The position numbers and the translations under genes are program-made. The notes beneath the pieces are model-generated. The model made no database searches and was not told the DNA's origin. It was given only the letters and a program-made list of their open reading frames with translations. 64,000 nt of DNA from Candidatus Pacearchaeota archaeon. Its GTDB lineage: Archaea > Nanobdellota > Nanobdellia > Pacearchaeales > GW2011-AR1. The stretch's first letter is position 1. Each line of letters begins with the position of its first letter. Shown here piece after piece: positions 1 to 9,004 of this stretch. The stretch is taken from the NCBI GenBank assembly GCA_041659265.1, contig JBAZYP010000007.1, forward strand, positions 9,928 to 73,927. The letters run 5' to 3'.

Positions 1-737
1 CAAATCTTTTCAGGAGAAATAGAATTAATCAATTCCCCATTTCCATCACCTAAAAAAGATGTTATTAAAAGTTTTTTTAATTCATGATTTTTCAATCTTT
101 CAACTTTTAAATTTAAAGCATGAAGTCTATCCATACAAATTTCAGTCTGAATTTCAATATCTGATTGCTCTTTAATGATTATATAAAAAACTCTATTCAT
201 AATTTTTTTTGTAGAAATAACCTCCTTCAAATGTTCTTTATAGCTATTAAATATTTTAATGAAACTTTTTTCAGTTATTCTGGATTTTAAAGATTCTAAA
301 TAATCATTTAATTCAATACTTTCAGTTTTCATAAGAATTTGAGTTTGAAAATCTAAAGAATTTAAAAATCTTTGAAATGAAAATATTATTGCATCTTTTT
401 CATTTTGTGGCTTGATACTAAAATTTATCGGTTGAACTTTAAGGACAGATACTTTCTTATTATTTGATAAAACTATTAAGTTATTATTTATCTCTTTAAT
501 TCCAAGATACTTTTTTAATTTATAATCGTCTTTTTTTAATATTCTATTCCTTAGGTAAATATGATAATTTTTTATTAAATTTTCAAGATTTAAAAACATA
601 AAACAAATACTAAAACTTGAAGAAACAAATATTAAAGGATATTTTATATAATCATTAGAGATATTTTTTAAAAAGATGATATCTATAAATCCAAATATAA
701 AAGCATAAAGAAGTTGTTTAAAGGTTAAACCAAACAT
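1..737 (-). CDS. Partial CDS whose C-terminal part lies beyond the window edge. Two N-terminal TM helices are followed by a region resembling the N-terminal domain of VirB4/TrbE-type conjugation ATPases (VirB3/PrgI-VirB4-like fusion).
   Basis: Own translation of the reverse strand from ATG 737..735, open to nt 1: MFGLTFKQLLYAFIFGFIDIIFLKN...NLIVLSNNKKVSVLKVQPINFSIKPQNEKDAIIFSFQRFLNSLDFQTQILMKTESIELNDYLESLK... It is missing from the ORF track because it is truncated. It is the last gene of a same-strand operon with pilin-like and VirB6-like genes. The Walker motifs would lie outside the window, so the ATPase call rests on N-terminal pattern and context only. Confidence 0.4.
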   Translation of the reverse strand, partial: MFGLTFKQLLYAFIFGFIDIIFLKNISNDYIKYPLIFVSSSFSICFMFLNLENLIKNYHIYLRNRILKKDDYKLKKYLGIKEINNNLIVLSNNKKVSVLKVQPINFSIKPQNEKDAIIFSFQRFLNSLDFQTQILMKTESIELNDYLESLKSRITEKSFIKIFNSYKEHLKEVISTKKIMNRVFYIIIKEQSDIEIQTEICMDRLHALNLKVERLKNHELKKLLITSFLGDGNGELINSISPEKI

Positions 738-778
738 AATTTTTTCTTTATACTCTAATTGTTGTGGGATTTGATAGC

Positions 779-1660
779 TCATACAAAATATTTTCCAACA
801 GCTAGTGCAATTATTGCTGTTTTTTCTCCAGTTTTAATTGCAGATTTCATTGCTGAAAAAATCATAAAATAAAACATAATAAAATTCACAATTAAAAATG
901 CAGCAATCATGACTAATATCTTAAAATTTTGAAAAATATCTATATCAATTAGCCTAGAACAAACCAGAAGAATAATTGAATCAAAAAATGTTACAAATAT
1001 GCTTATTCCTAAAAAATTTATTATTAATCTACCATAATTATTTACAGGAGGAATAAAATAGAGAAAAATACCTAAAGGTAAAAAGATAATACCTGCTGCA
1101 ACAATAATATATCTAAATGTTAAAAATAAAACAGTGAATATAAGAACAACAACATAACTCAATCCAAAGAAAAACTGCAATCCTATGTTTGTTATGTTAT
1201 CGGCAGTAATAAGGAAAAAATTAGGATCAATTAAGTTAACTATTCCAGCTGTAAGTAAACTATTAAGATCAATTACTACTGAATATAAAAAATATGAAGC
1301 CTGAACTAAAACAATCATGATAAAGATATTTTTAAACCACTCCTTAGCTTTATTTCTTTTTTCTGCATCATAACCTGAAATAATAAAATTAAATCCAGAA
1401 TAAAGCATTAGTAATCCATAAAAAATAGAGATAATATAAATTATAATTGCCCATAAAGAAACAAATAATTCTAATTTAATAGGTTCTGTTAAAAGTGATT
1501 TTGTTAAAGATAACAATGGTTGTATTGGAGCATTTAATATATTAATAAAAAATTCAAATAGTTTTTGAGGGAGGCATGTTGAAATATTCAAAAGACCACA
1601 CTCTTCAGCACTTACTAATGGAATTAAAAACAAAGGTAATCCAAACAATGCCTTTTTCAT
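779..1660 (-). CDS. Polytopic membrane protein (signal peptide plus multiple TM helices); candidate VirB6/TrbL-like channel subunit
   Basis: 293 aa ORF that is hydrophobic throughout. Its start overlaps the upstream gene by 4 nt (ATGA, 1657..1660). It lies between a pilin-like gene and a VirB4-like gene. Confidence 0.45.
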   Translation of the reverse strand: MKKALFGLPLFLIPLVSAEECGLLNISTCLPQKLFEFFINILNAPIQPLLSLTKSLLTEPIKLELFVSLWAIIIYIISIFYGLLMLYSGFNFIISGYDAEKRNKAKEWFKNIFIMIVLVQASYFLYSVVIDLNSLLTAGIVNLIDPNFFLITADNITNIGLQFFFGLSYVVVLIFTVLFLTFRYIIVAAGIIFLPLGIFLYFIPPVNNYGRLIINFLGISIFVTFFDSIILLVCSRLIDIDIFQNFKILVMIAAFLIVNFIMFYFMIFSAMKSAIKTGEKTAIIALAVGKYFV

Positions 1661-3030
1661 ATTATTCCTCCAAAAAACTTTCTTAACCCAGAATAAAGAA
1701 AATAATTTAATATAACAAAAAGAGACAATGAATAAATCAATTTTATTTTAGTTTTATCTTTAACAAAGATTATCTTTTCATAATGATTTATACTATAATC
1801 TGCACTAATTTTATTATTAGAAATGTCAGCAATAAATGTAGTATTATTAGAAATAATCTTAGATTGATTTCCATAACTTAGATTTACTAAAAGATTATCA
1901 GGAGATATTTTAATAGAAATAGTTTCATTAGAACTATAAATAAACTTATCAGTTTGTATTTTTATAGAAACATTAGTAACATTAAGAAAACAGTCTTTTT
2001 CAATTATATTAAAAAAATCATGAGCTTTGATTTTACAATTATTTATATTTTTTATTATAAGATCATTACCACTTCTCTGAATATTATTTGATGAAAGTTG
2101 ATTATTATCTATTGCTTTTAATGTTTGGATATAATATGGTTCCTTTGAATAGTTTATTTCATATGAATATTTATTGAATTTATAATACGAATTGTTAAGA
2201 TTTAAGTAAAAACTATCAGAATAATTAATATTTATTCTGTTTGATTCTTTATAAGAATCAATAATTTTAATGTCTCCAATTAAAGTATTATTATAATATT
2301 TTACATTTAAAGTATCTTGAATTAATATTGAATTTTGTTTTATTTCATTATAATTAAAACTACACCTATTTGAATACTGTCTACACCTTCCTTTTCTGTA
2401 ATATGAACAATATGTTTCCCAATAATAATGATCAATGTTATAACCTACATTCATTAAATAATCAGATTTGATAATTGAATCAGATTCAATTTTTAAATCA
2501 ACTAATTTTCCACTTCCTTGATAATTATTATTTACATAAACCCTGTTTTCAGATTCATTTTTTATTAAAGTATAGATTCTTTTACAATCTCCTAAGTTAG
2601 TATTTGGATAATCAGAAGAATAGTAATTTACAGGAGCATTTATCTTATAATTAAAAGCAGATAACAGTTTTGTTTGATTTGGTACAAATAAATCATTATT
2701 GTACTGAACCGAAGGCATTACAGACAAAATTGAAAGCCATGCATCTTTAACATATTCTCCATTATAATTTTTAACTCCTATCGGAGGATTATCAATCTTG
2801 ATATTAGTATTTCTTTGAAAAATATAATTATGATCTGGAAAGAATTTATTATTATAATCTAAATTAGAAATTAATATTTCTTTCTCTTGTAAGGTTAAAT
2901 TAGAATTCAAAATGCTTAAACAAGTTTGATAGTTTCCTATTGATATTTTATTACAATCTAAAGAAAAAATAAATGGAGTTTGCACTAAAAATATTAGTGC
3001 AAACATCCAAAATAAAAAATACTTTTTCAT
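1657..3030 (-). CDS. Secreted N/Y-rich protein with a C-terminal TM anchor and a Cys cluster; function unknown (T4SS-like operon member)
   Basis: 457 aa ORF. N-terminal signal peptide MKKYFLFWMFALIFLVQTPFIFS, C-terminal hydrophobic helix LIYSLSLFVILNYFLYSGL, and Cys cluster ETYCSYYRKGRCRQYSNRCSF. Tightly packed in the operon. Confidence 0.6.
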   Translation of the reverse strand: MKKYFLFWMFALIFLVQTPFIFSLDCNKISIGNYQTCLSILNSNLTLQEKEILISNLDYNNKFFPDHNYIFQRNTNIKIDNPPIGVKNYNGEYVKDAWLSILSVMPSVQYNNDLFVPNQTKLLSAFNYKINAPVNYYSSDYPNTNLGDCKRIYTLIKNESENRVYVNNNYQGSGKLVDLKIESDSIIKSDYLMNVGYNIDHYYWETYCSYYRKGRCRQYSNRCSFNYNEIKQNSILIQDTLNVKYYNNTLIGDIKIIDSYKESNRININYSDSFYLNLNNSYYKFNKYSYEINYSKEPYYIQTLKAIDNNQLSSNNIQRSGNDLIIKNINNCKIKAHDFFNIIEKDCFLNVTNVSIKIQTDKFIYSSNETISIKISPDNLLVNLSYGNQSKIISNNTTFIADISNNKISADYSINHYEKIIFVKDKTKIKLIYSLSLFVILNYFLYSGLRKFFGGII

Positions 3031-3031
3031 A

Positions 3032-3370
3032 TTAACTCACAATAAAGTTAACAACCAATGGAGCTGCCCAAATTACTATTAGTCCTATGATGACATACAT
3101 AGCCATATTCTTTGCCTGTTCTCTTTTCGATGCATTTCCAGCAGACGCAATAAAAGTTATTCCAGCAAATAGCAAGACTACAACTGCAAGAACTGTGGCA
3201 CCATATTTGACCAAATTATATATCTTCATAACTGGAGAAAGAATTTGATCAAAAGTTGCTTTATCTTCATTAGATGGATCTTGATTAAAATCTACAGCCA
3301 TTACTAGCTGAAATGTCATCACTATCACAAAAAATAATAAACCAAGTAAATACCCGTGTTTTTGTTTCAT
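3032..3370 (-). CDS. VirB2/TrbC-like (conjugative pilin-like) small membrane protein
   Basis: 112 aa. A long signal peptide ends in ..QLVMA/VD. Two hydrophobic helices (ATVLAVVVLLFAGITFIA and MAMYVIIGLIVIWAAPLVVNFI) are separated by the short basic loop SAGNASKREQAKN, which is the classic VirB2/TrbC topology. Operon context supports the call. Confidence 0.5.
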   Translation of the reverse strand: MKQKHGYLLGLLFFVIVMTFQLVMAVDFNQDPSNEDKATFDQILSPVMKIYNLVKYGATVLAVVVLLFAGITFIASAGNASKREQAKNMAMYVIIGLIVIWAAPLVVNFIVS

Positions 3371-3585
3371 TTTTTACCTCCTGTCAAATTTAATTTAAGC
3401 TTCTCTTTCTTGAATTCCTTAATTCTATGAAGATATTTTTTCTTATACTTCCACTTAAAGAATTCAATACAAGAGTTGCAGACCTCTTTTTCATTTTCAA
3501 TCTCTTTGTTACAAATTAAACAATTTTTCATGAAAGTGTCTTGATTAATGCCATATAAAATAACTAGGAGAAAAATTTCAAGCAA
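3367..3585 (-). CDS. Small zinc-ribbon protein (CxxC...CxxC); first gene of the T4SS-like operon
   Basis: The ORF-track start is TTG at 3585. A more likely start is ATG at 3531, giving MKNCLICNKEIENEKEVCNSCIEFF... The C-terminus is basic. Confidence 0.4.
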   Translation of the reverse strand: MLEIFLLVILYGINQDTFMKNCLICNKEIENEKEVCNSCIEFFKWKYKKKYLHRIKEFKKEKLKLNLTGGKK

Positions 3586-3751
3586 TATTCTGCTTGTTTT
3601 TTTGCTTGTTTTTTTTATCCTGTTTTTTATAAATCATTATTTTATATGTTTTTTATGGAATCAAAAATAACTTTTGACATCGGAGAAGAAATTATTCTAA
3701 AACTAAAGGAATTAAACCGCCTATTAGAAAGAGTTGTAAAGGATAAACAAA

Positions 3752-3946
3752 ATGAAGAAAAATTACAAAGTCAATCTGTTAATGGAAACTGATGAAGTAA
3801 AAAGCTTAAAAAAACAAGCTGATGAAATTAATATTAGTTTTTCTGAATTAATAAGACAAAAGCTCAAACCAAATCATCACATAATAAGGACTGAATTAAT
3901 TCTAGATAAAATATTAAATCTATTAGAAAAAAATGGAAACAAATAA
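3752..3946 (+). CDS. Ribbon-helix-helix (CopG/Arc-like) DNA-binding protein; candidate controller of the downstream methyltransferase
   Basis: 64 aa. The pattern YKVNLLMETDEVKSLKKQADEINISFSELIRQKL fits strand-helix-helix. Its 3' end overlaps the methyltransferase start (3933) by 14 nt. Confidence 0.5.
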   Translation: MKKNYKVNLLMETDEVKSLKKQADEINISFSELIRQKLKPNHHIIRTELILDKILNLLEKNGNK

Positions 3947-4595
3947 AATATTAATGGGTGATTGCATTACCCTTATGAAAGAGATTCCTAAGAATAGCGT
4001 CGATCTAATTTTGACCGACCCACCATATGGAGATAATGTGGCTTATGGAACCACTAATAAAAGCATATTAAATAATGAAAATCCATTGATAAACTGCACT
4101 GCTCTTGTAGAATTCTATCGGATATTAAAGAAAAATAGATCTGTATACATCTTCACCAACTGGAAACACTATCCTTTCTTGTCAGAATTTATAATTAGAT
4201 ATACAAAATTCAAGATAAGACACCTAATAATCTGGAAAAAGCATAGCTTTGGTTTAGGTTGGGCTTTCAGGCATCAATATGAAATGATTCTTGTAATTGA
4301 AAAAGGCAAACCCAAATACAATCTGAGGAATTTTTCAGATGTTCAATCAGCATTGCATATCAACCATAATCAACTAACTCATCCTCATGAAAAACCAATT
4401 GATCTCATATCGAAGATAATTGAACATAGTTCTAAAGAAGGAGATCTTATTCTTGATCCTTTTTGTGGAAGTGGAGCAATATGCAAAGCATCCCAGATAA
4501 AGAATAGAAGGTTTATAGGGATTGAATTGGATGAAAGGTATGTTGAGATGGCTAAAGAGAAGATAAATAATATTAATCATATTATTCTAAACTAA
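3933..4595 (+). CDS. DNA methyltransferase, beta-class N6-adenine/N4-cytosine type (N6_N4_Mtase family)
   Basis: The catalytic motif IV, ILTDPPYG, lies near the N-terminus. The AdoMet motif I, DPFCGSGAI, lies near the C-terminus. This circularly permuted order is typical of beta-class enzymes. Confidence 0.85.
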   Translation: METNKILMGDCITLMKEIPKNSVDLILTDPPYGDNVAYGTTNKSILNNENPLINCTALVEFYRILKKNRSVYIFTNWKHYPFLSEFIIRYTKFKIRHLIIWKKHSFGLGWAFRHQYEMILVIEKGKPKYNLRNFSDVQSALHINHNQLTHPHEKPIDLISKIIEHSSKEGDLILDPFCGSGAICKASQIKNRRFIGIELDERYVEMAKEKINNINHIILN

Positions 4596-6027
4596 CTTTG
4601 AGCTTTTTTAAAATTTCTTTAAACTTATTAAAAAACAAATTCATTTCGTTAGTGTTCTTATTTTCCTCGAACCAAAGCTTAATTAAAACAATCCATAAAT
4701 AATTTTTATCTTGACCTAATTCTTCAGATATTTTAGTAAACCATTCATGAAAATCGGAAAGAAGTTTATTATCCTCAAAAGCTTTTTTAACAAATTCGTA
4801 ATCTAATTGAGTATATTTAGAAATCTCCTGAACTTTAGAAAGGGAGAAATTCATAATAAATTTTTCGGGCGGTTCTTCCCAAGGTAATTTTAATGTAAAA
4901 TTATCTATGTCCTCACCCAAATCAGAATCACCATCTAATATTCCAAATGTGTTATTTAATTCTAATTTTTTACATATAATGCCTGCTTGTTTAATATAGG
5001 TATCGCTACCGATCGGATTTATAATTAAATGTTTTAGAATTTTTGGATCTTTTTTTGAAATGATTGTTTCTAATAATGTTTTAGACTTTTGATCTTCAAC
5101 AAGTATTTCAACAAAATCTTTATTAAACGAACCTAAAATATCTTTGGCTAAATATTTGGAACAATTATTAAAACAAGATACATTACCATTAGTATCAGAA
5201 AGAATTAAAATTCTAGAAGGTTCATCGGAATGATCAATGATGGTTGGCGAATGGGTTGTTAAGATAAACTGAATATTTTTTTTAGCAGAATATTTATGTA
5301 ACAACTCCAATATTTTCTTCTGAGCTTCGCAATGAACAAAGTTTTCGAGTTCCTCTATAATCACTATACTATTTGGAGAGACTTCATTTATTTTCCAAAG
5401 AAACTGATTTATATAAAATTCCCCAGATCCCATAGTATAAGAATCGTATATCATCCCATTAGTTAGCTTAATTACATAATATTCATTCTCTATATCATCC
5501 TCATCTATAATTCTTTCAACTGAAGAAATATCTTTATACAAAAGTTCTTTCATGTAATTAAGTAATTCTGGAGGTAGGATAAAACTGTCAAATTGTTTAA
5601 GAGATTCCTTATTATCTTTTATTTCTGTTTCAGAGCTGTTTTTATACCTAGAATACAACTTAGAATTGAAAGTTATATCTACTATCAAAGGCAAAACAAA
5701 TTCTTTTTTTATTATTTGTTTATTATTTACATGTATATATTGTTCTTGATTATTTATAATTTTTATTTCATAACTTTTAACTTCGGATAATATTCCAAAC
5801 TCATAGCTATTATTTTGAAGGCTATAAACCTGTTTTAAAGCATTAACAATTGTTGATTTTCCACTCCCATTGATACCGGTTAAGATAGATACAGGAGATA
5901 AAAAATTAATTAAAGAATTCTTCCAATTAAATAATCCCTTAACTTCGATTGATCTAATGAAATATTCTCCATTATCCCATTTTTTTAGGATAGCTCTCCG
6001 ATAATCTTCATATTCTTTCCAAATCAT
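4582..6027 (-). CDS. ABC/SMC-like ATPase (AAA_15/AAA_21 type) with a Toprim-like (DUF4435/OLD-like) C-terminal region
   Basis: Walker A GINGSGKST, Walker B IVIIEELENFVH, H-loop ILTTHSP. In the C-terminus, EILVEDQKSKTLLE (Toprim Glu-like) and FGILDGDSD (DxD-like). The start lies directly after the stop of the DUF262 gene. Confidence 0.65.
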   Translation of the reverse strand: MIWKEYEDYRRAILKKWDNGEYFIRSIEVKGLFNWKNSLINFLSPVSILTGINGSGKSTIVNALKQVYSLQNNSYEFGILSEVKSYEIKIINNQEQYIHVNNKQIIKKEFVLPLIVDITFNSKLYSRYKNSSETEIKDNKESLKQFDSFILPPELLNYMKELLYKDISSVERIIDEDDIENEYYVIKLTNGMIYDSYTMGSGEFYINQFLWKINEVSPNSIVIIEELENFVHCEAQKKILELLHKYSAKKNIQFILTTHSPTIIDHSDEPSRILILSDTNGNVSCFNNCSKYLAKDILGSFNKDFVEILVEDQKSKTLLETIISKKDPKILKHLIINPIGSDTYIKQAGIICKKLELNNTFGILDGDSDLGEDIDNFTLKLPWEEPPEKFIMNFSLSKVQEISKYTQLDYEFVKKAFEDNKLLSDFHEWFTKISEELGQDKNYLWIVLIKLWFEENKNTNEMNLFFNKFKEILKKLKVSLE

Positions 6028-6028
6028 C

Positions 6029-7063
6029 TTAGCCTCCGATTTTTCCTGTTCTTTGGAATTCTGAATAAAAATTTATTAAAATCTTATGTCTTCCTTTTAA
6101 TGATTGAGGATCCAACCATCCCCCACTAAGGTAAGCATCAAATTCTACAAATTTTGGATGTGGAGCTTTATTCTGATTTAATAATTTTATTTGATTATCT
6201 CTCCATTCTTCAAATAAATTTAAGAAATCCGGGATTTTATTTATATTTAGTTCTTTATTATCAATTTCTCTAATTAACCAATAATACGAGACTATTGTAG
6301 ATTTTGTCAATTTAAAATTAAAACCGGATAATCCTTTATTTAATAGAGTTAAATTTTTTATAAGTCTATTTTTCGAAGAAGAATCTATTTTTTTATTAAA
6401 ATACATCTCTTCTAAAGCTTTAGAACCTGGTTTAAAATCTAATGTTTGATTATGTTCCAAAAAAAAGATTTTATCTAGTATATCTTGATAAGCCATTCTT
6501 CGGTTTTCAAAACCTATTTTACTCGCATTAAAGAGTTCTCTAAATTGGTTAATAATGTCCTTTCTTAAAAAGTTTTTTATTGGTCCATATATACAATTTC
6601 TTTTTTCTGATGCAGTAACTGTTACGCCTTGGTTTAATCTTAAAAATAATTCTGTTGCTTCGTCTCGGTCAACATCTCTTACTTCAAAAACTCTAATAGT
6701 GCATCTTAAAAATCTAGCTTTTAATTTATCTGAAAATTCTGAATATTTTTTCCCATTTATATCATTAAAGTCATCAGTTCCAGGTAAAAAATTTGAATTA
6801 AATTGGAATTTATTATTCATAAAATTAAAAATTGAGTAGAGCCTCTGTTTACCGTCCAAAACCTCAAAGATGTCATTACCTTCAATGTTTACTAAATGGA
6901 TAGGCGGTATATGCCATCCTCTTAAGATTGAATCAATCAATTTTTGTTGTTTTTCTTTATTCCAAACTAAATCTCGTTGAAAATCTGGTTCGAGATCATA
7001 TATTTTACGTTTAATTCTATTGTAAATAGTTTCTATATCTGGGTCTGAACCTATAATTATCAT
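6029..7063 (-). CDS. DUF262 (ParB/Srx-like, GmrS-type) domain protein
   Basis: DFQRDLVWNKEKQQKLIDSIL...HIPPIHLV...EVLDGKQRLYSIFNF matches the QR...DGQQR signature of DUF262. There is no recognisable DUF1524/HNH C-terminal domain. Confidence 0.75.
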   Translation of the reverse strand: MIIIGSDPDIETIYNRIKRKIYDLEPDFQRDLVWNKEKQQKLIDSILRGWHIPPIHLVNIEGNDIFEVLDGKQRLYSIFNFMNNKFQFNSNFLPGTDDFNDINGKKYSEFSDKLKARFLRCTIRVFEVRDVDRDEATELFLRLNQGVTVTASEKRNCIYGPIKNFLRKDIINQFRELFNASKIGFENRRMAYQDILDKIFFLEHNQTLDFKPGSKALEEMYFNKKIDSSSKNRLIKNLTLLNKGLSGFNFKLTKSTIVSYYWLIREIDNKELNINKIPDFLNLFEEWRDNQIKLLNQNKAPHPKFVEFDAYLSGGWLDPQSLKGRHKILINFYSEFQRTGKIGG

Positions 7064-7120
7064 TTTATTCTAATTGGAATATAAATGTTTTTATTTAAAG
7101 ATTCTTATAATAAAGATATA

Positions 7121-8266
7121 TTAAACTTTCATCCCAACCTGATTAACCAATACCAATATCTGTTTCATCTGCAATTCTAAAGTATTAACCCTTTCAATAA
7201 GAACTTCTTTTTCTCGACTTGAAACATCAAGTCTCTTTTCAATTTCAGTTTTAGTAATATCAACAAGCATATCATCTTCATTTATTGTATCTCTCATGCC
7301 AAGCATTTCAGAATAATAATGAATTTTATCAGATTCTTTCCATCCAAACCTAAATTTTAATGCAGATTCACTTTTATATCTTGGAAGCCAATAACAGCAT
7401 GAACAATGCCTGAAATCATACATAGTTAATTCAGAATATTTCTGACCTGCTAAGCTTTTTTCATCACCAAGAACTCGCTTCGCTAAGTGTTTAAGATATT
7501 GATTTGTAACAGGCGGAGAAATATCAAAAAGAAAGTCATCAGATTTTAAATTATTTATCTTAATATATTCTTTTAATAATTCTGAGCATAGCATTAACTT
7601 TATTCTTCTTCCAAAAGTTTTGCTAGTCTCTTCTCTAATGTTTAATTCTTTAAATTCATGGTATAAATCTGAAACTTTCACATTTACTAATTCTGTAGGA
7701 GCCCTTATTCCTGAATCAAATAAAAACATAATTAAAACTTTATAATCAAATTTAGCATTATCGTATAGCTTTCTTACCTGATTTTCAGATAAATAGACCC
7801 ATTCAGGTTTAGTTCCGCTAGAATCTAAATAAACAGTAATATCTGGGATTTCCTTTCCTGCTTTTTTACTTATTTTTTGATACCAATGCCAAAAAGCCTT
7901 AAATGTCTTAGAAAAATCTCTTACTGACTTATAAATGCCTCCATCGATTTTCCTTATAGCACCACTCCTTAAGTCCGAAAAAAATTCAATTAACTGCTCT
8001 TCACTCAATTTGGATATATTGTTTATTTCATATCTTTTTTCAAAACTACTAATTAAAAATTGAAGCTTGCTTCTGGAACTTCTTAATCTAATATAGCTTC
8101 TACCGCCTTTTTTGCTTAATAAAGAAACATTAAATCCTTTTTCCATATCATTAAGATAATGCATTAATAATTCAGAATTTATCTTGCTAATCCCTTTAAT
8201 TCCTGTGGAATTTCTATCTTTCCAGCTATTCCAGGCTTCTTGACTTTTATATGGGTCTTTTTTCAT
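7121..8266 (-). CDS. Tyrosine recombinase / integrase
   Basis: 381 aa. Box I-like LFDSGIRAPTELVNVKVSDL. Box II-like MYDFRHCSCCYWL...FGWKESDKIHYY, with the catalytic Tyr candidate. It lies 90 nt downstream of the tRNA-Cys 3' end on the same strand. Confidence 0.8.
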   Translation of the reverse strand: MKKDPYKSQEAWNSWKDRNSTGIKGISKINSELLMHYLNDMEKGFNVSLLSKKGGRSYIRLRSSRSKLQFLISSFEKRYEINNISKLSEEQLIEFFSDLRSGAIRKIDGGIYKSVRDFSKTFKAFWHWYQKISKKAGKEIPDITVYLDSSGTKPEWVYLSENQVRKLYDNAKFDYKVLIMFLFDSGIRAPTELVNVKVSDLYHEFKELNIREETSKTFGRRIKLMLCSELLKEYIKINNLKSDDFLFDISPPVTNQYLKHLAKRVLGDEKSLAGQKYSELTMYDFRHCSCCYWLPRYKSESALKFRFGWKESDKIHYYSEMLGMRDTINEDDMLVDITKTEIEKRLDVSSREKEVLIERVNTLELQMKQILVLVNQVGMKV

Positions 8267-8355
8267 TTTATATTTCTAACAAGTCCGGATTAAAAACATC
8301 CGGAGTATGTCATACGTATAAAAAGTGTACCCCTAAGGATCACGCAAATATGATA

Positions 8356-8427
8356 AGCACGGGGTGAGAATCGAACTCACGAAAATCCGCTCTGCAGGCG
8401 GACGCAGTACCATTGTGCCACCCGTGC
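8356..8427 (-). tRNA. tRNA-Cys (anticodon GCA)
   Basis: Reverse strand: GCACGGGTGGCACAATGGTACTGCGTCCGCCTGCAGAGCGGATTTTCGTGAGTTCGATTCTCACCCCGTGC plus discriminator U. The cloverleaf folds. The anticodon loop is CUGCAGA, and U73 is typical for Cys. Confidence 0.9.
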
Positions 8428-8512: not shown

Positions 8513-9004
8513 ATGGAGTCTCCAAAAATAGATGACCTTGATTATGAAAGATATTTCATAAATATTGAAGATTTAACAGAAATTTTAAGAGATTTATCAA
8601 GAAATTATTGTAAAGATAATTGTCCTATTTCAGGCATTATAAAATGTTGCGGATATGATCATCATAAACATTCTCTTCCTGAAACTATATTAAACAATCA
8701 AGAATCTGAAGCTATATCAAAGGGCTGGATTTTTCATAATGAAGAAGATAGGTGCAGATATCATTCAGATAGCGGATGTAGTTTAACAAAAACAATATCT
8801 CCAATTTGCATTGGTTACTTTTGTTCAGATTTAACAAATTATTTAACCAATAATTCCAAGGATAAAGAATTAATGAACGAATTTCTAGAATCAATTGGAA
8901 TTGTTAGAATGAGTTCTAGATTTGATTATCAATTTAATAGAATTAATTATTATCTAGAAGATACTATCCAATTAGGAAGAAAAATCTTAGAGAATTCTAA
9001 ATAA
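8513..9004 (+). CDS. Cys-rich protein, possibly a YkgJ/CxxCxxCC-type zinc/iron-chelating domain protein
   Basis: 163 aa with the Cys patterns NYCKDNCPISGIIKCCGYD and DRCRYHSDSGCSL...SPICIGYFC. Confidence 0.4.
   Translation: MESPKIDDLDYERYFINIEDLTEILRDLSRNYCKDNCPISGIIKCCGYDHHKHSLPETILNNQESEAISKGWIFHNEEDRCRYHSDSGCSLTKTISPICIGYFCSDLTNYLTNNSKDKELMNEFLESIGIVRMSSRFDYQFNRINYYLEDTIQLGRKILENSK

What the first reader, a model, noticed from the sequence alone, without database searches (positions are those of the whole stretch)
3752..7063. Candidate defence module: DUF262 (ParB-like) protein + ABC ATPase with Toprim-like tail, convergent with an RHH-controlled methyltransferase
The DUF262 gene (signature DFQRD...DGKQR) is translationally coupled to a 481 aa ATPase; the stop at 6029 and the start at 6027 are adjacent. 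The ATPase has Walker A GINGSGKST, Walker B IIEELE and H-loop TTHSP. Its C-terminus carries a Glu (ILVEDQKS) and a DxD (ILDGDSD) arrangement, as in Toprim/DUF4435 nucleases of the OLD, Gabija GajA and PARIS AriB families. DUF262 is known from GmrSD type IV restriction enzymes and from SspE. I do not recognise a stand-alone DUF262 protein lacking DUF1524/HNH and paired with an OLD-like ATPase-Toprim protein as a named system. The pair converges on a beta-class DPPY methyltransferase preceded by an overlapping RHH gene (C-protein-like). The 3' ends of the two transcription units overlap by 14 nt (4582..4595). The four genes could therefore form one restriction-modification-like unit with an unusual nuclease component.
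Basis: partly seen in the sequence, partly recalled or inferred. Interest (0 to 1): 0.65.

Follow-up and report, generated by a model that had tools for sequence, protein, structure and literature searches.

The report
DUF262 sensor plus ATPase-Toprim nuclease pair
Two tightly linked genes, a ParB-like DUF262 protein and an ATP-driven OLD-type nuclease, form a conserved and probably antiviral pair that rides as cargo in an archaeal mobile element, while the neighbouring methyltransferase belongs to the element's fixed backbone and is not its partner.

Summary
The 344-aa protein is a DUF262/ParB-like protein whose best defence-model match is Menshen NsnA. The 481-aa protein is an ABC ATPase fused to an OLD-type Toprim domain. 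Its best match is HEC-04/IbfA, a single-protein defence system that has been validated experimentally. Models and fold searches confirm the Toprim tail, and E311, D365, D367 and E388 are invariant in 81 relatives.

The two genes co-occur, adjacent and usually overlapping, in methanogens, Cloacimonadota, Bacteroides, Proteobacteria, Exiguobacterium and Luteolibacter. ATPases with a DUF262 partner form one clade, separate from 68 stand-alone HEC-04-like genes. No third (NsnC-like) gene is conserved.

The four-gene restriction-modification idea fails. The RHH gene, the methyltransferase and the integrase form the backbone of a family of tRNA-integrating elements, together with a T4SS-pilin-like module. 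Of 80 related loci, only one carries this pair. Four of the 46 that hold both genes have the methyltransferase abutting the integrase, within 17 bp. Others carry different, mostly defence, cargo in the same slot.

Verdict: a new variant of a known kind (Menshen / HEC-04 / OLD), not named in the catalogues and papers I could search. Its defence function is inferred, not tested.

The parts
6029..7063 (-). NsnA-like DUF262 (ParB-superfamily NTPase) protein, 344 aa. It has an N-terminal DUF262 domain and a helical C-terminal half that is probably ParBDB-like. It has no nuclease domain.
   Evidence: PF03235 at 1.4e-24. PADLOC NsnA 4.3e-33, PD-T4-2_A 1.2e-18. The QRxxxW, DGxQR and FxxxN motifs are invariant or nearly so in 116 relatives. 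The homologue P0138 matches the NsnA model nearly end to end. There is no Pfam or PADLOC hit for residues 146-344 alone.
5143..6027 (-). ABC ATPase domain (residues 1-295) of the 481-aa protein. Motifs: Walker A GINGSGKST (K57), signature-like GSGE (E203), Walker B IIEE (E225-E226), H-loop TTHSP (H259).
   Evidence: AAA_21 7e-17, SMC_N and AAA_15. Model pLDDT 90.8, and Foldseek top hits are GajA, Thermus OLD, PtuA and retron ATPases. The residues are invariant.
4582..5142 (-). Toprim domain plus C-terminal helical bundle (residues 296-481, with the stop codon). Putative metal site: E311, D365-x-D367, E388. A conserved H427-x-W429 lies in the helical part.
   Evidence: PADLOC HEC-04 matches this part alone at 2.3e-8, and ATPase-Toprim_I-B at 2.8e-5. 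The domain model has pLDDT 91.4 with strand-helix order b1(E311)-a-b2-a-b3(DxD)-b4. Foldseek top hits are the C-terminal regions of Xanthomonas and Burkholderia OLD, TM 0.48-0.52, probability 0.98-1.0, E 8e-3 to 3e-2. There is no Pfam hit.
7064..7120 (-). Short intergenic region upstream of the DUF262 gene. It holds a TATA-box-like TTTAAATA (7092-7099), about 32 nt before the start codon. This is a possible own archaeal promoter.
   Evidence: Read directly from the sequence. This is inference only, because the promoter scan tool covers only bacterial sigma-70 sites.
3933..4595 (+). Beta-class DPPY DNA methyltransferase, 220 aa. It is a backbone gene of the mobile element and not a partner of the pair.
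   Evidence: PF01555 at 1.3e-35. 111 metagenome relatives were found, and the 80 kept are 67-85% identical. It occurs with varied cargo or none.
3752..3946 (+). RHH-type small protein that overlaps the methyltransferase start. It is a backbone gene.
   Evidence: Weak hits to NikA-like and BrnA. It lies upstream of the methyltransferase in 54 of 80 related loci.
7121..8266 (-). Tyrosine recombinase (integrase) of the element.
   Evidence: NCBIfam XerA_Arch 3e-10. A homologue (E down to 1e-218) lies convergent to the methyltransferase in 46 of 80 loci. In 14 of 20 related loci scanned, a tRNA gene follows just beyond where the integrase lies.
8356..8427 (-). tRNA-Cys(GCA), the probable integration target and right-hand end of the element.
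   Evidence: ARAGORN. The gene beyond it (8513-9004) has no homologue in the 80 related loci.

Best explanation
The DUF262 gene and the ATPase-Toprim gene form a self-contained two-gene operon that most likely defends the cell or its mobile element against viruses and other invading DNA. Proposed mechanism: the DUF262 protein is a ParB-superfamily NTPase with a helical DNA-binding half, like Menshen NsnA. It senses foreign DNA, possibly DNA that is modified or of unusual structure. It then acts on the ABC ATPase head of its partner. ATP-dependent dimerisation or a conformational change in turn licenses the fused OLD-type Toprim nuclease to cut nucleic acid. The target could be DNA, as for OLD and GajA, or tRNA, as for PARIS AriB. 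In effect this is a Menshen-like sensor coupled to a HEC-04/IbfA-like effector in which transducer and nuclease are one polypeptide, so no NsnC is needed. Shown here: the domain identities, the intact catalytic motifs, the conserved adjacency of the two genes, and the single origin of the paired clade. Also shown: the pair sits among defence genes in several other loci, and it occupies a variable cargo slot between methyltransferase and integrase in a tRNA-integrating element. Inferred: the defence function itself, physical contact between the two proteins, the direction of signalling, the trigger and the substrate.
For: Domain identities. The DUF262 protein best matches NsnA. The ATPase best matches HEC-04 (117.6 bits, full length) and ATPase-Toprim_I-B, while NsnB scores only 57 bits. 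Structure: the full model has pLDDT 90.8 with GajA, OLD and retron Eco8 as top folds. The C-terminal domain alone has the OLD C-terminal regions as its top folds. Catalytic residues are invariant in the ATPase and in DUF262. HEC-04 needs its Walker A lysine and the E/D/D Toprim triad for defence (10.1101/2024.01.29.577857). Pairing: DUF262 lies directly upstream in 12 of 80 GTDB loci. It is also paired in Methanolobus, Bacteroides, a JGI contig, Exiguobacterium, Luteolibacter and Vibrio harveyi. 14 contig lengths are shared between the two homologue lists. The paired ATPases form one clade (SH-aLRT 99, one change on the tree, 0 of 500 shuffles as low) and carry their own Walker B signature, EE instead of DE. 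Neighbours at other loci are SRA-HNH, GIY-YIG, Fic, a TIR-STAND protein, type I-C CRISPR and toxin-antitoxin genes. The slot in related elements holds other defence-type cargo.
Against: No member of the paired clade has been tested. Pfam's own Toprim_OLD and DUF4435 models do not hit the C-terminus. The fold-search E-values for the isolated domain are modest (8e-3 and weaker, TM about 0.5). No complex was modelled, so contact between the two proteins is unproven. Stand-alone relatives work without DUF262, so DUF262 might only modulate the nuclease. Some cargo in the same slot is not defence-related.
Confidence: 0.7

Rival explanations
1. One reading: RHH, methyltransferase, DUF262 and ATPase-Toprim form one restriction-modification-like unit. 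The methyltransferase would mark self DNA and the pair would cut unmarked DNA.
For: The genes are adjacent and converge with a 14-nt overlap. The same arrangement is seen in one other contig, L092. The Menshen paper raises the possibility that solitary methylases next to Menshen serve it (PMC12065111).
Against: None of the 80 ATPase loci has a homologous methyltransferase, RHH or integrase within 6 kb. The six paired loci with gene tables show no conserved methylase. Of 80 loci with a 67-85% identical methyltransferase, 79 lack the pair. In four of the 46 that hold both genes, the methyltransferase abuts the integrase within 17 bp. The backbone is 83-85% identical where the pair is only 46-63% identical, which indicates separate histories.
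Confidence: 0.07
2. Two independent single-gene systems happen to be neighbours. The ATPase-Toprim protein acts alone like HEC-04/IbfA, and the DUF262 protein acts separately.
For: 68 of 80 relatives are stand-alone. HEC-04 works as a single gene.
Against: The pairing is confined to one well-supported clade and the gene order is fixed. The genes are adjacent and overlap in five of the six paired loci with called genes; the sixth has no gap. This DUF262 protein has no nuclease or other effector domain.
Confidence: 0.1
3. The pair serves the mobile element rather than immunity. A ParB-like protein plus an SMC-like ATPase could act in partition, maintenance or addiction, or in excluding rival elements.
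For: DUF262 belongs to the ParB superfamily and the ATPase head resembles SMC and RecF. The pair lies on an integrative element next to a T4SS-pilin-like module. HEC-04 was toxic when induced.
Against: Most related elements lack the pair, so it is not a core maintenance function. The pair also sits in chromosomal defence islands away from such elements. The strictly conserved Toprim metal site points to nuclease action.
Confidence: 0.1

Closest known systems
HEC-04 / IbfA (single-protein ABC ATPase-TOPRIM defence; Payne et al. bioRxiv 10.1101/2024.01.29.577857; PMC12111858)
   Same: Same length and architecture: an ABC ATPase head, a Toprim domain with an E...DxD metal site, and a helical tail. 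HEC-04 is the best PADLOC match over the full length (1.4e-34). The stand-alone sister clade matches it at 179 bits.
   Different: HEC-04 acts as a single gene. The window's protein belongs to a separate clade that always has a DUF262 gene directly upstream. That clade has Walker B EE instead of DE and scores lower on the HEC-04 model (55-141 bits).
Menshen (NsnA-NsnB-NsnC; Millman 2022; Li et al. NAR 2025, PMC12065111)
   Same: The first gene is a stand-alone NsnA-like DUF262 protein (best PADLOC hit, 4.3e-33). It is followed by an OLD-type ABC ATPase in the same order and tightly coupled. The sensor-to-ATPase-to-nuclease logic is the same, and some NsnC effectors are Toprim-fold proteins.
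   Different: There is no third gene. The ATPase has no DUF3696 tail and carries its own Toprim nuclease. The NsnB model matches only the ATPase core (57 bits). There is no inactive-PIN adaptor.
OLD-family nucleases, including Gabija GajA, retron Eco8 effector and PARIS AriA/AriB
   Same: ABC ATPase plus Toprim. The top structural matches for the whole protein are GajA, Thermus OLD 6p74 and retron Eco8. For the C-terminal domain they are 6njx, 6njw and 6nk8.
   Different: There is no Pfam Toprim_OLD or DUF4435 hit. The partner is a DUF262 protein rather than a UvrD helicase, a reverse transcriptase or nothing. Sequence identity to solved structures is 11-17%.
PADLOC candidate PDC-M55
   Same: It combines the same three functional parts.
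   Different: PDC-M55 has three separate genes in another order. The window's DUF262 protein hits PDC-M55C only at 4.9e-4 over 27 residues.

Membership tests
DUF262 / GmrSD_N (ParB superfamily NTPase) | Pfam PF03235 match above the gathering score, with the QRxxxW, DGxQR and FxxxN motifs | tested here: met
   87.8 bits against a cut-off of 33.2. All three motifs are present and invariant or nearly so in 116 relatives.
GmrSD / SspE type IV restriction enzymes | A DUF1524 His-Me nuclease domain fused to DUF262 | tested here: not met
   There is no Pfam or PADLOC hit for residues 146-344. The protein is only 344 aa.
Menshen | NsnA: a DUF262 domain plus a ParBDB helical domain | tested here: met
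   NsnA model 4.3e-33 over residues 7-227. The homologue P0138 (37% identical over 97% of the query) matches NsnA positions 49-371 of 385. The ParBDB fold of the window protein itself was not modelled.
Menshen | NsnB: an ABC ATPase with a C-terminal DUF3696 helix | tested here: not met
   No DUF3696 (PF12476) hit. The NsnB model matches only the ATPase core, 5.7e-16. The C-terminus is a Toprim domain.
Menshen | NsnC: a third gene with an inactive-PIN domain plus an effector domain immediately downstream | tested here: not met
   In the window the next gene is a convergent methyltransferase. The downstream genes differ in every paired locus examined.
HEC-04 / IbfA | An ABC ATPase with an intact Walker A lysine, fused to a Toprim domain with an E / DxD metal triad | tested here: met
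   HEC-04 model 1.4e-34 over residues 147-474, and 2.3e-8 for the C-terminal part alone. K57, E311, D365 and D367 are conserved throughout.
HEC-04 / IbfA | Acts as a single stand-alone gene | tested here: not met
   The window's protein falls in the clade that always has DUF262 upstream, separated from 68 stand-alone genes (SH-aLRT 99).
OLD-family nucleases | An N-terminal ABC ATPase and a C-terminal Toprim fold with catalytic acidic residues | tested here: met
   Fold searches, the secondary-structure order and the invariant E311, D365, D367 and E388.
OLD-family nucleases | A match to the Pfam Toprim_OLD (PF20469) or DUF4435 (PF14491) sequence models | tested here: not met
   No hit even at E<=10 for the isolated C-terminus.
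Type II restriction-modification system with a controller protein | The methyltransferase co-inherited with a cognate nuclease | tested here: not met
   The methyltransferase occurs without the pair in 79 of 80 loci and the pair without it in all 80 ATPase loci.
Nuclease activity and anti-viral protection of this pair | Biochemical cleavage and protection in vivo | not testable with these tools
   This needs bench work.

The most novel reading that the evidence does not exclude
The pair is a distinct, so far unnamed and widespread two-gene immune system found in both archaea and bacteria, a 'minimal Menshen'. In it a ParB/DUF262 NTPase that reads invader DNA directly gates an OLD-type ATPase-Toprim nuclease. 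In groundwater DPANN-like archaea it is traded as a cassette in a dedicated cargo slot of tRNA-integrating, T4SS-bearing elements. This would give a simple two-protein model for how a DUF262 sensor passes its signal to an ABC ATPase, which the Menshen paper states is unresolved.
Probability: 0.45. Interest if true: 0.62.

Novelty: new variant of a known kind. Interest (0 to 1): 0.5.

Why it matters
If the pair is functional, it links two defence families that have been described separately: the Menshen sensor and the HEC-04/OLD effector. It does so in the smallest possible form, two proteins with no adaptor. That makes it a tractable system for asking how a ParB-like DUF262 NTPase signals to an ABC ATPase, a step the Menshen paper says it cannot explain (PMC12065111). 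It also adds a candidate defence system for archaea, including small-genome groundwater archaea. A recent survey reports that DPANN archaea lack restriction-modification and CRISPR systems (10.1101/2025.04.20.649705). Finally, the variable slot between methyltransferase and integrase in this element family is a ready place to look for further archaeal defence genes.

Tried and rejected
Searches that found nothing:
- Pfam on the isolated C-terminal halves of both proteins gave no relevant hit; the only match was a chance-level PUF_NOP9 one at E 0.061.
- A PDB sequence search with the DUF262 protein found nothing.
- No direct repeat of the tRNA-Cys region (14 nt or longer) exists elsewhere in the window, so the far attachment site lies outside it or is too short to see.
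- The exact protein is not on record in the contig index.
- The viral contig scan returned only 6 distant ATPase relatives and no pair.
- The plasmid collection had no match. The phage collection had only domain-level DUF262 matches.
- The bacterial promoter scan was uninformative: 30 sites found against 32 expected.

Memberships considered and rejected:
- PD-T4-2, which pairs DUF262 with a HEPN protein. Only the DUF262 half matches, and more weakly than NsnA.
- Dazbog, which the papers list as DUF262-containing: no Dazbog model was among the six PADLOC matches of the DUF262 protein.
- PDC-M55, which gave only a 27-residue match.

Also rejected: WonAB, GrwAB and TgvAB from Vibrio cholerae have different architectures.
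Full report
**1. Observation**

- The DUF262 gene (6029-7063, minus strand) ends in TAA. One base later comes the ATG of the 481-aa ATPase gene (4582-6027, minus strand), with a GGAGG just upstream.
- The ATPase gene and the convergent methyltransferase gene (3933-4595, plus strand) overlap by 14 nt.
- The small RHH gene (3752-3946) overlaps the methyltransferase start by 14 nt.
- The region is very AT-rich, 24-33% G+C.
- The quoted motifs are present. They are not chance strings, because they sit in invariant alignment columns.

**2. What the two proteins are**

*The 344-aa protein.*
- It matches Pfam GmrSD_N/DUF262 well above threshold.
- Among defence-system models its best match is Menshen NsnA (4.3e-33), followed by PD-T4-2_A.
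- The QRxxxW, DGxQR and FxxxN motifs are invariant or nearly so in 116 relatives.
- It has no DUF1524 or any other nuclease domain.
- A bacterial homologue, 37% identical over 97% of the query, matches the NsnA model almost end to end. The C-terminal half is therefore probably the helical ParBDB DNA-binding domain described for NsnA (PMC12065111). I did not model that part.

*The 481-aa protein.*
- Pfam sees only the ABC-type ATPase (AAA_21, AAA_15, SMC_N) and nothing in the last 190 residues.
- PADLOC's HEC-04 model matches over the full length (1.4e-34) and matches the C-terminal part alone (2.3e-8). The retron ATPase-Toprim_I-B model also matches.
[quoted passage not shown] It protects E. 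coli from phages, and it needs its Walker A lysine and an E/D/D metal-site triad to do so. It is a homologue of the plasmid gene ibfA.
- An AlphaFold model built on 32 sequences is confident (pLDDT 90.8). Its best PDB matches are Gabija GajA, the Thermus OLD nuclease and the retron Eco8 effector.
- Residues 296-481 were modelled alone (pLDDT 91.4). They show the Toprim strand order, with E311 after strand 1 and D365-x-D367 after strand 3.
- The best PDB matches for this domain are the C-terminal regions of the Xanthomonas and Burkholderia OLD proteins (TM 0.48-0.52, probability 0.98-1.0). The E-values are only 8e-3 to 3e-2.
- K57, E226, H259, E311, D312, D365, D367 and E388 are kept wherever the residue is present in 81 family members; K57 is missing from four incomplete rows.
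- I therefore accept the Toprim reading.

**3. Do the two genes belong together?**

Yes.
- A scan of one genome per prokaryotic species found 267 relatives of the ATPase. Among the best 80, twelve have a DUF262 gene directly upstream on the same strand. These come from Methanosarcinales, Methanoregula, Methanocalculus, Methanocellaceae, an unclassified archaeon, Cloacimonadota, Bacteroides, Bordetella, Rhizobium, Bradyrhizobium and an alphaproteobacterium.
- The other 68 stand alone.
- On a maximum-likelihood tree the paired genes, including the window's, form one side of a single branch (SH-aLRT 99). One change of state explains the distribution, and none of 500 label shuffles did as well.
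- The paired clade also has its own Walker B signature, EE where the stand-alone clade has DE.
- The stand-alone clade is the one closest to HEC-04 (179 bits).
- Starting from DUF262 homologues gives the same picture. In Methanolobus sediminis, Exiguobacterium, Luteolibacter luteus and Vibrio harveyi a 482-558-aa ATPase follows with overlapping start and stop. Their best defence-model matches are HEC-04 or ATPase-Toprim_I-B.
- Fourteen contig lengths are shared between the two homologue lists.
- No third gene is conserved. The downstream neighbours include DNA polymerase II, an unknown 461-aa gene, Cas3, a TIR-STAND protein, a lipase and MesX.

**4. Surroundings: the methyltransferase is not a partner**

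*From the pair's side.* None of the 80 ATPase loci contains a homologue of the window's methyltransferase, RHH or integrase within 6 kb.

*From the methyltransferase's side.*
- A metagenome scan found 111 relatives, and the 80 kept are 67-85% identical.
- The RHH gene lies upstream in 54 of them. A close homologue of the window's integrase lies convergent downstream in 46. The DUF262/ATPase pair is present in one, L092.
- The distance from methyltransferase to integrase runs from zero to 4.7 kb.
- In L093, L094, L096 and L118 the two genes abut, within 17 bp.
- Elsewhere the slot holds varied cargo:
  - an AAA_13 ATPase;
  - C5-methylase plus GHKL-ATPase pairs;
  - a DndB-like protein plus a Dam methylase;
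  - a Z1/ResIII protein;
  - an AAA_21 ATPase plus an RloB Toprim protein;
  - a different DUF262 protein;
  - an M78 peptidase;
  - some non-defence genes.
- In 14 of 20 loci scanned, a tRNA gene (Cys, Asp, Ser or Glu) lies just beyond the position of the integrase.
- The T4SS-pilin-like genes left of the RHH gene in the window (Pfam T4SS_pilin) are conserved in 21-52 of the loci. The gene beyond tRNA-Cys is in none.
- Backbone genes are 75-85% identical between the window and its closest relatives, L092 and L094, apart from the short RHH gene of L092 (43%). The pair in L092 is only 63% (DUF262) and 46% (ATPase) identical.

*Conclusion.* The layout is T4SS-like module, RHH-methyltransferase, cargo slot, integrase, tRNA. 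This is the end of a family of integrative elements, and the pair is one of many interchangeable cargoes. Adjacency to the methyltransferase follows from the position of the slot and does not show a functional link. The window comes from a groundwater metagenome. Earlier notes of this scan call the genome archaeal.

**5. Mechanism**

My best reading is a sensor-effector pair.
- The DUF262 protein senses. By analogy with GmrSD, SspE and the proposed role of NsnA, it would bind invader DNA and use NTP hydrolysis as a switch.
- It then acts on the ABC ATPase head of its partner.
- As in GajA, PARIS and HEC-04, the nucleotide state of the ATPase would control the Toprim nuclease.
- Whether the nuclease cuts DNA or tRNA cannot be told from sequence.

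Every step beyond domain identity, motif integrity and conserved linkage is inference.

**6. Comparison with known systems and novelty**

The pair is not a member of Menshen: it has no NsnC and no DUF3696 tail. It is not HEC-04 in the strict sense, because it belongs to the paired clade and not the stand-alone one. It is not GmrSD (no DUF1524), not PD-T4-2 and not PDC-M55. It works like a Menshen whose transducer and effector are fused, or like a HEC-04 that has gained a DUF262 sensor.

I found no paper or PADLOC model that names this two-gene form. I could not check the Menshen supplementary tables or run the current DefenseFinder. I rate it a new variant of a known kind, of moderate interest. 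The cargo slot of the element family is a useful by-product.

Noticed in passing
window 1-8427; related loci L089-L168: A family of tRNA-integrating elements shares a backbone: T4SS-pilin-like genes, RHH, a DPPY methyltransferase and an integrase next to a tRNA (Cys, Asp, Ser or Glu). The family is widespread in groundwater, lake and sediment metagenomes. The methyltransferase is 67-85% identical across the 80 loci kept out of 111 relatives.
   Followed up: partly
L093 5651-5664, L094 5639-5656, L096, L118: These are 'empty-slot' relatives in which the methyltransferase gene abuts the integrase gene, within 17 bp. In other relatives up to 4.7 kb of variable cargo sits between the two genes.
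   Followed up: yes
L148 5641-8327, L150 5682-8431, L127 3230-6648, L157 1139-3138, L162 5625-8094, L106 1064-4188, L111 5792-7954: The cargo in the same slot includes C5-methylase plus GHKL (HATPase_c_3) pairs, an AAA_21 ATPase plus an RloB Toprim pair, a DndB-like protein plus a Dam methylase, a Z1/ResIII protein with a second methylase, and an AAA_13 ATPase. Several large cargo proteins have no Pfam hit at all (L089 803 aa, L140 489 aa, L127 449 aa).
   Followed up: partly
ATPase residue 225 (window about 5353-5355): The Walker B motif reads EE in all 13 DUF262-paired ATPases and DE in all 68 stand-alone relatives. It is a clean clade marker of unknown meaning.
   Followed up: no
L051 8953-11330: In a Candidatus Entotheonella genome, a stand-alone HEC-04-like gene lies about 1.5 kb upstream of a weakly matching DUF262 gene and a short ATPase. 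This may be a canonical Menshen next door.
   Followed up: no
window 3752-3946: The best Pfam hit of the RHH protein is the relaxosome accessory protein NikA (3.9e-4). It may therefore serve transfer or regulation of the element rather than act as a restriction-modification controller.
   Followed up: no
window 7092-7099: A TATA-box-like TTTAAATA lies about 32 nt upstream of the DUF262 start codon. This suggests the pair has its own promoter and a very short leader. The second gene has a GGAGG ribosome-binding site.
   Followed up: no
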